This document shows positions 31,901 to 34,900 of a stretch of 64,000 nucleotides of DNA, piece by piece. The stretch lies in assembly GCF_016026235.1 (NCBI RefSeq), contig NZ_CP065613.1; one strand, given 5' to 3'. Within the stretch, counting starts at the first letter, position 1. Each line of letters starts with the position of its first letter. The position numbers were made by a program. The stretch comes from Escherichia coli (GTDB lineage: Bacteria > Pseudomonadota > Gammaproteobacteria > Enterobacterales > Enterobacteriaceae).

Positions 31901-34900
31901 TCTTCAGTATGAAAACATTACCCGATACACACGTACGGGAGGCATCGCGCTGCCCGTCTCCCGTCACCATCTGGCAGACTCTGCTCTCCCGACTGCTGGA
32001 CCAGCATTACGGCCTTACACTGAATGACACACCGTTTGCCGATGAACGTGTGATTGAGCAGCATATTGAGGCAGGCATTTCACTGTGTGATGCGGTGAAT
32101 TTTCTCGTGGAAAAATACGCGCTGGTGCGTACCGACCAGCCGGGATTCAGCACCTGTCCCCGCTCTCAGTTAATAAACAGTATTGATATCCTCCGGGCTC
32201 GCCGGGCGACCGGCCTGATGGCCCGCGACAATTACAGAACGGTAAATAACATTACCCTGGGTAAGCATCCGGAGAAACGATGAAACTTTCCCTGATGCTG
32301 GAAGCCAGCAGCATTAACGTGCGGACGCTGAACATGGGGCGCATTGTCGTTGACGTCGATGGTGTTAATCTCGCTGAACTGATTAACGTGGTCTGCGACA
32401 ATGGTCACTCCCTTCGTGTTGTTGATGAATCTGACCGGGTCTCAACAGACTGCACGCCACCATTTGCTGCCCTGACCGGCATACGCTGCAGTACCACGCA
32501 TATCACTGCAAAGGACAACGCCTGGCTGTACTCGCTGTCACACCAGACCAGTGACTTCGGTGAATCAGAATGGATTCATTTCACAGGTAGCGAATATCTG
32601 TTACGTACCGATGCATGGTCGTACCCGGTTCTGCGGCTTAAACGCCTGGGCCTGTCAAGAACGTTCCGTCGTCTGGTCGTCACTCTCACCCGGCGTTATG
32701 GCGTCAGTCTCATTCATCTGGACGCCGGCGCAGAATGTCTGCCGGGTTTACCCACTTTCGACTGGTAATCAGGACAAAAGACACTGGATGAAATTATTAA
32801 CCACAGAAACGGCGCTGGATATTCTGATTGCGTGGCTGCAGGACAATATCGACTGCGAATCGGGGATTATCTTTGACAACGATGAGGATAAAATGGATTC
32901 AGCAGCACTGTTGCCCTGTATTGAGCAGGCCCGGCAGGATGTCCGTACCCTGCGTCATCTGCACCAGAACCGGTGAATCTCACTCATCATACTTCATTCC
33001 ACTGACGCCAGCCTGAACAGGGCTGGCGTTTTCATTTATCTGCAAAAAGGAATATCGATTATGTCTGATATCACAGCCTCCCGTCCGGAAGTGGTCAACG
33101 GGCATACGGAAGTTATCTGCTCAACCAGTATCCACCACATTCTGGCTGTACGAAAAAGTACACTGCTGCAAATCGACACACTTATCCGGCAACTGGCTGA
33201 AATCTCAGTTCTGACGGAAAGCATTGGAGGTAAAACCACCCGGGACTGGGCCATGAAACAGAATTTTCGCTGCGGCTGCTGGCTCATGGAGAAACCTGAA
33301 ACGGCAATGAAAGCCATCACCCGCAACCTTGACCGTGAAATCTGGCGTGACCTGATGCAACGTTCCAGGATGCTTTCCTTAATGGATGCGCAGGCCCGTG
33401 ATACATGGTACCGGTCACTGGAGTACGATAATTTTCCGGAAATCAGCGAAGCGAACATTCTGAGCACATTTAAACAACTGCACCAGAATAAGGATGAGGT
33501 GTTTGAGCGGGGAGTGATCAACGTCTTCAGGGGACTGAGCTGGAATTATAAAACCAACTCTCCCTGTAAATTTGGAAGTAAAATCATTATCAACAATCTG
33601 GTGAGATGGGACCGGTGGAGATTTCATCTTATCACCGGACAACAGACTGACCGACTCGCCGATCTGGAAAGAATGCTACATCTGTTCAGCGACAAACCGA
33701 TTCCCGACAACCGGGAAAACATCACTATTCGTCTGGATGGTCACATCCAGTCCGTTCAGGGTAAAGAGCGCTATGAAGACGAAATGTTCATCATTAAATA
33801 CTTTAAGAAGGGATCTGCACACATCACTTTCAAAAGGCTGGAACTGATTGACAGAATTAACGATATAATAGCTAGGCACTTTCCTTCTGAGCTCTCAGCC
33901 TGATCCCGAATGCGATTTCCTTTCGATATCAAAAGGGATTGCGGGTATAATTGAGGGTACATTTTTAATCAAACCAAATAAATTAGATTAATATCAATAT
34001 GATAAAAGAAATTTTCGATTCCGAGTCCGGCACCACTAATTCTTAAGAACCCGCCCACAAGGCGGTTTTTTGCTTTTGGATCTGACAATAACCTTCACGA
34101 AAAAAATTAGCTTATAAAGTCTGGGGGAATTACTCTCGCCACGTTAACGAGAGTAATTTTATTGATATTAATCTCCTGATACTTTACCCCCGTCCAAACT
34201 CCAGCCGCTGCACATTCACCATCCCAGGCTTCTCAGCAGCACTGACATCAATTTGTGTCACCCGCAGCGCATATTTTTCATCCAGTGCGTTTAACCATTT
34301 CAGCAGGTCATTAAACACCACAGGTTCTATCCAGACCTGAATATTCTCCCCACGCTCGGCTATCCGCCTGATGACCACCGAGTGCGCGGAAGCACTGTCA
34401 CTGATGACCCGCGATACCTGCGCAGGAGTTGTTGTGGCAGATTTTCGCGCTGCAATAATATCCGGCGCGGCGTTCTTCAGTCGGGTGTTCATTGCCACCA
34501 GCTGCTGCAACATCGTCTCCTGTTGTTCTATCTGTTCGCTCAACGGCTGCCAGATGAGGACGTAATATCCGACGCTAAACAGGAACACCACCGCTGCCAG
34601 TAACATGCCCTTTTCACGCGGAGAACGCCCCGCCAGGTGTTGTGCCAGCCAGTGTTCGCCACGGCTTAACTGGCGTTCACGCCATTGCTGAAAATAGTGA
34701 ATAAATTTATCGCGTAACATGTTATTTCCTCCGCAACGTTACGCCGCCGGAAACCGCATCACCCTCTTTCTGTAACGCGTCCTGTTGCACAACATAATCG
34801 GTTGCCAGTGCACTACGCAGTTTGTCGAAACTGGCAAAGTTTGCTGCCCGCAACTGGAGGTGAAGCGTCTGGCGTTTTTGATCAAAGGTGAAACCACGCA

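What the first reader, a model, noticed from the sequence alone, without database searches (positions are those of the whole stretch)
34011..34072. Island/core junction marked by a degenerate tRNA-Phe 3'-end repeat and terminator
A 22-23-nt copy of the tRNA-Phe 3' end (one G deleted from the GGG run) followed by a CCGCC/GGCGG hairpin and T-run marks where island DNA meets the gspM flank. This fixes the island's right boundary at about 34036 and implies the intact pheV gene and an integrase lie beyond the window start.
Basis: partly seen in the sequence, partly recalled or inferred. Interest (0 to 1): 0.35.

Follow-up and report, generated by a model that had tools for sequence, protein, structure and literature searches.

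The report
Right-end attachment site of pheV island
This is the right-hand attachment scar (attR) of a large genomic island inserted into the phenylalanine tRNA gene pheV of an E. coli/Shigella-type chromosome, followed by pheV's own stranded terminator; this exact sequence has already been published for many strains.

Summary
Window 34014-34035 (+) is TTCGATTCCGAGTCCGGCACCA. This is the last 23 nt of tRNA-Phe, from the T-loop to CCA, minus one G of the GGG run. From 34036 onward the sequence matches the K-12 pheV-yghD spacer. The CCGCC/GGCGG hairpin plus T-run (34051-34071) is pheV's native terminator, left stranded at this end and weakened by one G>T change.

Genomes of the same lineage with an empty pheV site lose homology to the window exactly at 34014. 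This "23-bp imperfect attR" is tabulated for many E. coli strains in PLoS Genet 2024 (PMC11537424), so the feature is already known.

New details:
- A 19-nt paired motif (33943-33961) recurs beside the integrase gene at the other island end. It is probably a pair of arm-type integrase sites.
- The missing G appears to travel with the element, which places strand exchange in the last ~7 nt (inferred, about 0.65).
- In the closest assembly, pheV is intact. Its integrase, however, is split by an IS element, and both lie about 1.6 Mb away in inverted orientation.

The parts
33061..33903 (+). Last island gene: a DUF4942-family protein (280 aa) at the end of the CP4-44-like flu/yee module
   Evidence: ORF. 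Pfam PF13708, E = 1.9e-65. The same gene sits next to attR in related genomes.
33904..34013 (+). Island-specific left arm (P arm) of attR. It is AT-rich non-coding DNA that is absent from empty-site chromosomes.
   Evidence: GC is 0.37 across 33800-34099. Homology to K-12, L040 and FDAARGOS_943 stops at 34014. The arm is conserved in E. coli genomes that carry this attR.
33943..33961 (+). Paired direct half-sites, GGGTATA-attga-GGGTACA. These are candidate arm-type binding sites for the island integrase.
   Evidence: It is the only match in the window, against 0.05 expected by chance. Nearly the same 19-mer (GGGTATAATTGCGGG[T/C]ATA) lies 127-145 nt downstream of pheV at attL, just before the integrase start, in L035, L004, L052, L058 and L088, together with an inverted copy. 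Other genera carry their own paired motif at the same distance from the core. The cognate integrases carry an Arm-DNA-bind_3 domain. Binding itself is inferred, not shown.
34014..34035 (+). attR core: a 22-nt copy of the tRNA-Phe 3' end (T-loop through CCA) lacking one G of the GGG run
   Evidence: An identical string is listed as the attR of many GI-pheV islands in PMC11537424, Table 1.
34036..34050 (+). Native pheV 3' flank between CCA and the terminator (core DNA)
   Evidence: Identical to K-12 L001 2443-2457.
34051..34071 (+). Displaced native pheV rho-independent terminator (stem CCGCC/GGCGG, loop CACAA, T6). A G>T change at 34066 shortens the K-12 6-bp GC stem.
   Evidence: Terminator scan. 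Folding gives -11.4 kcal/mol here against -18.1 for the K-12 version. The G>T change is shared with L038 but is absent from K-12, from lineage-mates with an empty site, and from other attR-bearing genomes.
34128..34158 (.). Conserved 11-bp hairpin in the core spacer between the pheV terminator and the yghD stop codon. It is probably the 3' end structure of the convergent gsp operon.
   Evidence: Folds at -14.9 kcal/mol on the + strand and -16.1 on the - strand, with z of about -4 to -5. Identical in K-12. Function was not tested.
34184..34720 (-). yghD (gspM), the first core gene to the right of the island
   Evidence: ORF. Annotated as yghD/GspM in matching genomes. Pfam T2SSM.
17167..17373 (+). 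AlpA-family small DNA-binding protein, a candidate recombination directionality factor of the island
   Evidence: Pfam Phage_AlpA PF05930, E = 5.4e-9. ORF. The excisionase role is inferred by analogy only.

Best explanation
The finding is attR, the distal attachment site of a genomic island that a P4-like tyrosine integrase inserted into the 3' end of pheV. The site has three elements. There is an island-derived arm with a pair of probable arm-type integrase sites (33943-33961). There is a 22-nt core that copies tRNA-Phe from the T-loop to CCA with one G missing (34014-34035). And there is the original chromosomal DNA downstream of pheV.

The insertion left the tRNA gene itself at the other island end (attL). 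There the element supplies a replacement terminator directly after CCA. As a result, pheV's native terminator is stranded at attR (34051-34071). It now sits behind the last island gene and faces the convergent yghD/gsp operon.

Two further steps are inferred rather than shown. First, the missing G is carried by the element's own attachment site and is not local decay. Second, strand exchange therefore occurs 3' of the G run, within about the last 7 nt (GGCACCA). That arrangement keeps pheV intact at attL and leaves the imperfect copy at attR.

In the lineage of this window the site is probably no longer usable for excision. The closest assembly has its integrase split by an IS element, and its attL lies about 1.57 Mb away in inverted orientation.
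For: Shown directly:
- The repeat and its identity to pheV.
- The flank is identical to the K-12 pheV-yghD spacer.
- Near-isogenic empty-site chromosomes lose homology exactly at 34014: L040 at 99.93% and FDAARGOS_943 at 99.93%.
- In related genomes the island's other end is yqgA-pheV-integrase: MSB1_4I, Z142-6, L090 and L088.
- The exact attR string is published for APEC O1, 536, 55989, H10407, REL606, CB9615 and others.
- A replacement terminator follows pheV at attL, folding at -17.6 kcal/mol with z = -5.
- The 19-nt motif is shared between the window's arm and the attL arms.

Support for an element-borne G deletion and a 3'-terminal crossover:
- The same arm plus the G-deleted core is joined to two different right flanks, the pheV flank and the pheU-type flank.
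- The pheU-type flank is itself the island's left-arm sequence, so that junction resembles attP.
- The G-deleted 22-mer occurs next to unrelated arms and flanks in 22 species representatives.
- In the second E. coli att type (TTTCATTCCGATTCCGGGCACCA), all departures from the tRNA also lie 5' of GGCACCA.
Against: - A minority of E. coli genomes carry a perfect GGG core on an identical or near-identical arm. That is at least 25 exact matches, and about 34 of 756 genomes in all, plus 4 metagenome contigs. The G state can therefore toggle and is not a fixed property of the element.
- The cross-species hits were selected by searching for the deleted form, so their frequency relative to perfect copies is unknown.
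- Gene conversion running up to the end of homology could in principle copy the deletion between the pheU and pheV sites.
- att sites that start at the T-loop are usually read as T-loop crossovers (preprint 10.1101/2020.11.02.365908).
- The left end of the window's own genome was not seen. The split-island picture rests on one assembly.
Confidence: 0.93

Rival explanations
1. The missing G is post-integration decay of a displaced chromosomal tRNA 3' end. Under this model the crossover happens in the T-loop, the part of the attR core to the right of the T-loop is the original chromosomal copy, and it has mutated because it is no longer under selection.
For: The repeat starts exactly at the T-loop, which is the classical signature of a T-loop sublocation. 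Perfect GGG attR copies exist on the same arm, which could represent the fresh state. The neighbouring stranded terminator has also picked up a private G>T change.
Against: The identical deletion would have had to arise independently at the pheV and pheU junctions. It would also have had to arise next to many unrelated arms and flanks in other genera. About 95% of E. coli attR copies with this arm have the deletion. The other att type also keeps all of its mismatches 5' of GGCACCA, including inside the T-loop, where mismatches should block exchange.
Confidence: 0.3
2. The 22-mer is a chance match, or the relic of a decayed duplicate tRNA-Phe gene, and not an attachment site.
For: No tRNA gene or integrase is visible anywhere in the window.
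Against: None of 100 shuffles gives a match. No tRNA-like sequence continues upstream of 34014. Homology with empty-site genomes breaks exactly at the repeat. The same arm-plus-core junction bounds pheV islands in hundreds of genomes, and it is published as attR.
Confidence: 0.01
3. The repeat derives from pheU, or from another tRNA, and the island belongs to a different integration site.
For: pheU and pheV encode identical tRNAs, so the 22-mer alone cannot distinguish them. The same arm plus core also occurs at pheU in 1246 genomes.
Against: The flank from 34036 onward is the pheV-yghD spacer, followed by yghD and the gsp operon, not the pheU-cadC region.
Confidence: 0.02

Closest known systems
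GI-pheV of E. coli with the '23-bp imperfect attR' (PLoS Genet 2024, PMC11537424; includes PAI V of strain 536 and the islands of 55989, H10407, APEC O1, REL606 and CB9615)
   Same: The attR string is identical, TTCGATTCCGAGTCCGG-CACCA. The position next to yghD is the same. The flu/yee module ending in the DUF4942 gene is the same.
   Different: The cargo here combines an aerobactin (iuc) block, which that paper associates with intP4.1 islands that have a 19-bp attR next to kps, with the 23-bp attR next to yghD. The terminator here carries a private G>T change. In the closest assembly the island is split and its integrase is broken.
[quoted passage not shown]
   Same: It is a pheV insertion with a P4-like integrase, an S6 autotransporter of 1285 aa near the left end in lineage-mates, an Ag43-like autotransporter with CP4-44-like genes at the right end, and an AlpA-type regulator. 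From my own recollection, not checked here, its right boundary is an imperfect 22-bp repeat of the pheV 3' end.
   Different: As I recall it, the she island carries no aerobactin genes. No she island sequence was compared here.
Phage P4 / lambda-type attP architecture (a core flanked by arm-type integrase sites)
   Same: There is a core at the tRNA 3' end. Repeated short motifs occur on both arms at fixed distances. The integrase has an N-terminal arm-binding domain.
   Different: No binding or recombination data exist for this motif. The element is a non-phage island tens of kb long.
CFT073-type GI-pheV with the 19-bp imperfect attR (TTTCATTCCGATTCCGGGCACCA)
   Same: The aerobactin block is the same at 99.3-99.4% identity. 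The integration site is the same. The native pheV terminator is likewise retained after attR.
   Different: The core variant and the arm motif (GGCCTCA pair) are different. The right flank there continues into the kps capsule locus, not directly into yghD.

Membership tests
attR of a tRNA-integrated genomic island (GI-pheV) | A direct repeat of the 3' end of the target tRNA gene at the distal island boundary | tested here: met
   22 of 23 nt of pheV with one G deleted, at 34014-34035.
attR of a tRNA-integrated genomic island (GI-pheV) | DNA beyond the repeat is collinear with the empty-site chromosome immediately downstream of the tRNA gene | tested here: met
   34036-34200 is identical to the K-12 pheV-yghD spacer except for 1 base. 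99.93% identity to empty-site lineage-mates, ending at 34014.
attR of a tRNA-integrated genomic island (GI-pheV) | DNA on the other side of the repeat is absent from empty-site genomes and carries accessory or mobile genes | tested here: met
   Window 1-34013 carries the iuc operon, IS elements, Ag43, the yee module and DUF4942. K-12, L040, L074 and FDAARGOS_943 have pheV directly next to yghD.
attR of a tRNA-integrated genomic island (GI-pheV) | An intact tRNA-Phe gene followed by a tyrosine integrase at the proximal boundary (attL) | not testable with these tools
   This lies outside the window. It is met in relatives. In the closest assembly pheV is intact, but the integrase is interrupted by an IS110-family element and lies about 1.57 Mb away.
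attR of a tRNA-integrated genomic island (GI-pheV) | Site-specific excision between attL and attR, giving a circle and a restored attB | not testable with these tools
Lambda/P4-type attachment site with arm-type integrase sites | Repeated short motifs on both arms, shared between the P and P' arms, together with an integrase that has an arm-binding domain | tested here: met
   GGGTATAATTGAGGGTACA at 33943-33961, unique in the window. A near-identical 19-mer plus an inverted copy occurs in the attL arms. The integrases carry the Arm-DNA-bind_3 domain. Actual binding was not tested.
Rho-independent terminator (the pheV terminator) | A GC-rich stem-loop immediately followed by a T-run, positioned after the gene it terminates | tested here: inconclusive
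   The structure is present and homologous to the K-12 pheV terminator. However, the gene it served is no longer upstream, the stem is weakened (-11.4 against -18.1 kcal/mol), and activity was not measured.
Functional tRNA gene | A full cloverleaf | tested here: not met
   ARAGORN finds no tRNA in the window. Only positions 54-76 are present.

The most novel reading that the evidence does not exclude
The one-G deletion is not decay. It would be a conserved signature carried in the attP of pheU/pheV-targeting elements across Enterobacterales. If so, this integrase family exchanges strands within the last ~7 nt (GGCACCA) of the tRNA gene, even though the repeat starts at the T-loop. The rest of the repeat would then be element-owned DNA that is free to drift, and the imperfect repeat could be used as a marker to separate independent integrations from inherited ones.
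Probability: 0.55. Interest if true: 0.3.

Novelty: already known. Interest (0 to 1): 0.12.

Why it matters
The junction fixes the right boundary of a virulence-type island that carries aerobactin genes, an Ag43 adhesin and a toxin-antitoxin module. It also shows which DNA is core and which is accessory. That is routine annotation value, because this exact attR is already catalogued. There are two modest extras. First, the data point to the crossover lying at the extreme 3' end of pheV, with the imperfect repeat belonging to the element. Second, in this lineage the island looks immobilised: the integrase is broken and the two ends are separated by a large inversion. That bears on how stable the virulence genes are.

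Tried and rejected
- tRNA and Rfam scans of the site found no tRNA, only noise hits. This is expected for a 22-nt fragment.
- The window's exact source is not among the complete E. coli genomes. The best full-length identity was 94.8-97.9%.
- I tried to walk from the window to the island's left end through exact-protein look-ups of YghD, IucD, YqgA and Iha. These alleles are too common, and the relevant assembly was not among the places returned. Rare alleles (SpeC, YeeR, and the helicase/PLD protein) finally located both island ends in GCA_031665325.1.
- I considered using the C>T pheV variant of FDAARGOS_943 and GCA_901482675.2 as a marker for which side of the crossover is chromosomal. I rejected this because a lineage-mate with an empty site (L074) has the normal base, so the variant is private.
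- I first treated the K-12 pheU downstream sequence as a second chromosomal flank. It turned out to be an old island left arm followed by the integrase remnant yjdQ, and the argument was reworked accordingly.
- The idea that genomes with a perfect attR carry a reciprocally G-deleted pheV at attL was checked and rejected for Z142-6, where both copies are GGG.
- Williams 2002 (NAR 30:866), on tRNA sublocations, could not be read. No open paper gave excision-product sequences for pheV islands.
- An exact count of G-deleted versus perfect cores in E. coli could not be extracted. Only the top 60 rows are visible.

Full report
**1. What is in the sequence**

Window 34014-34035 (+) reads TTCGATTCCGAGTCCGGCACCA. 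K-12 pheV ends ...CCTTGG TTCGATTCCGAGTCCGGGCACCA. The alignment shows that the window copy starts at the first base of the T-loop and runs to CCA, with one G of the GGG run missing.

The bases just upstream (…GATAAAAGAAATT) have no similarity to the tRNA. The 22-mer is unique in the 64-kb window and appears in none of 100 shuffles. No tRNA gene is present in the window.

From 34036 rightward the window is identical to the K-12 pheV-yghD spacer, apart from one G>T change at 34066. yghD (gspM) follows on the minus strand at 34184-34720.

**2. What it is**

Thousands of E. coli genomes match this region, and 694 carry the same DUF4942 gene-repeat-yghD arrangement.

Two near-isogenic chromosomes have an empty site, with yghD-pheV-yqgA adjacent. 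These are GCA_901482675.2 (L040, 99.93% identity) and the complete genome FDAARGOS_943 (99.93% over window 34014-54268). Their homology to the window ends exactly at 34014.

Everything to the left of 34014 is accessory DNA:
- the aerobactin genes iucD, iucC, iucB and iucA, plus an MFS transporter;
- several IS elements;
- DUF3987/YfjI and an AlpA-family gene;
- Ag43 and YeeR;
- the CP4-44-like yee module, ending with a DUF4942 gene at 33061-33903.

In related complete genomes the other end of the island is yqgA-pheV-tyrosine integrase (MSB1_4I; Z142-6).

A 2024 study of GI-pheV lists exactly TTCGATTCCGAGTCCGG-CACCA as the "23-bp imperfect attR" of the islands in APEC O1, S88, ED1a, H10407, 12009, CB9615, 55989, the O104:H4 strains, 042, 536, 11128, REL606 and others (PMC11537424). 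The feature is therefore the attR of a pheV island, and it is already described.

**3. The terminator**

K-12 has CCCGCC-CACAA-GGCGGG-TTTTT directly after pheV. The window has the same element with the last G of the stem changed to T. That leaves a 5-bp GC stem and six T's, folding at -11.4 against -18.1 kcal/mol.

This is therefore pheV's own terminator, which is core DNA stranded at attR by the insertion. It is not a structure created by the junction.

At attL of related islands, pheV is followed immediately by a different strong terminator carried by the element: GGACCTCC-ACGG-GGAGGTCC-T5, folding at -17.6 kcal/mol with z = -5. The G>T change is shared only with the near-identical assembly L038. 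It is absent from K-12, from other attR-bearing genomes and from empty-site lineage-mates.

A second conserved hairpin (34128-34158) sits between this terminator and the yghD stop codon.

**4. Anatomy of the site beyond the core**

The motif GGGTATAATTGAGGGTACA lies 53-71 nt upstream of the core (33943-33961). It is unique in the window, against 0.05 matches expected by chance.

Almost the same 19-mer, GGGTATAATTGCGGG[T/C]ATA, lies 127-145 nt downstream of pheV in the attL arm, just before the integrase start codon. An inverted copy follows about 20 nt further on.

Elements at tRNA-Phe in Xenorhabdus, Sodalis, Rouxiella, Brenneria, Limnobaculum and Budvicia have their own paired motif at the same distance from the core. 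So does the CFT073-type E. coli island. The cognate integrases are about 420 aa with Arm-DNA-bind_3, Phage_int_M and Phage_integrase domains.

I interpret these as arm-type integrase sites. This is an inference, and no binding data exist.

**5. Where the missing G comes from**

There are two models.
- **Model A:** the crossover is in the T-loop, the rest of the attR core is old chromosomal DNA, and the deletion is decay.
- **Model B:** the element's attP carries the imperfect copy, and the crossover lies 3' of the G run.

Evidence for B:
- The same arm plus G-deleted core is joined both to the pheV flank and to the pheU-type flank. Strain GmM062 has both, and 1246 of 5426 genomes have the pheU-type version.
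- The "pheU flank" of K-12 is itself nearly identical to the island's attL arm and is followed by the integrase remnant yjdQ. That junction therefore has the structure arm-core-arm, which is attP-like, with GG.
- An exact scan of species-representative genomes found the G-deleted 22-mer in 22 loci from at least 12 genera, next to unrelated arms and flanks.
- In the other E. coli att type (TTTCATTCCGATTCCGGGCACCA), every departure from the tRNA again lies 5' of GGCACCA, including inside the T-loop.

Evidence against a simple version of B:
- Perfect GGG cores exist on identical or near-identical arms. There are 25 exact and about 34 of 756 E. coli genomes, 4 metagenome contigs, and L039 and L041. 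In Z142-6 both repeats are GGG.
- The cross-species scan was biased, because it searched only for the deleted form.

I put model B at about 0.65.

**6.

Rare protein alleles located the lineage. Assembly GCA_031665325.1 is 99.985% identical to window 24184-44720, and its contig coordinate equals the window coordinate plus 931,612.

The same 3.45-Mb contig carries, at about 2.54-2.56 Mb, the following run:
- nupG, an IS110 element, and a truncated speC;
- yqgH and yqgA;
- pheV, intact at 76 nt with GGG;
- the arm, and an integrase interrupted by a 1,438-bp IS110-family insertion at about codon 320;
- a 1170-aa helicase/PLD protein;
- a 1285-aa S6 autotransporter.

At both ends, "into the island" points toward decreasing coordinates. 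That fits a ~1.6-Mb inversion with one breakpoint inside the island, although misassembly cannot be excluded.

So pheV is intact and an integrase gene exists, as predicted. In this lineage, however, the integrase is dead and attL and attR are neither adjacent nor in direct orientation.

**7. Verdict**

Interest is low. The added value lies in four points: the exact boundary (34013/34014), the recognition of the terminator as the stranded pheV terminator, the shared arm motif, and the evidence-based but unproven placement of the crossover at the extreme 3' end.

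Noticed in passing
window 3779-3811 (iucB, minus strand): Relative to the 99.88%-identical locus L050, the window lacks 11 bp (TTACCGTTATG) at about 3811. This splits iucB into two overlapping ORFs (3157-3810 and 3779-4093), so aerobactin synthesis is probably inactivated in this genome.
   Followed up: partly
GCA_031665325.1 contig JARKNJ010000001.1 (L078, L088): In the closest assembly the two ends of the pheV island are about 1.57 Mb apart in inverted relative orientation. The integrase is split by an IS110-family element, and speC is also truncated by an IS110-family element. This IS-driven rearrangement and gene decay suggest a Shigella- or EIEC-like lineage.
   Followed up: partly
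L073 5633-5708 (FDAARGOS_943) and L040 10686-10761: Two empty-site lineage-mates carry a pheV variant with C>T in the acceptor stem (GAGTCTGGGCACCA, which makes a G-U pair), right beside the G run. A third lineage-mate (L074) has the normal sequence. The origin of the variant is unexplained.
   Followed up: partly
L028 1192-1551 (K-12 pheU downstream): The K-12 pheU-cadC spacer is not naive chromosome. Its first ~105 nt, including the terminator, match the left arm of pheV islands, and it is followed by the integrase remnant yjdQ. K-12 pheU therefore carries an old island stump.
   Followed up: yes
L009 1473-1547 (Pantoea sp. IMH): This is a full-length tRNA-Phe gene of 75 nt that carries the same one-G deletion in its acceptor stem. 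It could be a sequencing error, a pseudogene, or the product of an excision that transferred the imperfect copy.
   Followed up: no
L006, L008, L010, L011, L017, L018, L022, L023: A second class of tRNA-Phe remnants starts at the anticodon stem (about 47 nt) and also carries the G deletion. The Pectobacterium copy (L023) has a compensated anticodon-stem change (GAGGA...TCCTC).
   Followed up: no
window 20944-21856: The YeeP-like GTPase gene upstream of Ag43 is split into two ORFs (122 and 211 aa), whereas relatives have a single 290-aa gene. It is probably a frameshift pseudogene.
   Followed up: partly
window 7096-16234: The stretch between the aerobactin block and DUF3987/YfjI is dense with IS remnants. 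It contains an IS3-family element with its ALIL frameshift pseudoknot at 10073-10189, IS66-family tnpB and tnpC at 13753-15564, two DUF7828 zinc-ribbon genes, and a YagK/YfjJ gene.
   Followed up: partly
window 21960-22163 and 53085-53306: There are two Rfam matches above the gathering threshold: IS102 RNA just upstream of the Ag43 gene, and the C0719 sRNA between glcA and glcB.
   Followed up: no
L072 3431-38213 (FDAARGOS_943): A Mu-like prophage of about 34 kb is inserted inside sslE in the closest complete genome. The window's sslE (46279-50856) is uninterrupted.
   Followed up: no
window 34027-34066: Of 13 differences between the window and FDAARGOS_943 over about 20 kb of core, three fall within these 40 nt (the core C/T, the core G indel, and the terminator G>T). 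The next difference is 4.6 kb away.
   Followed up: partly
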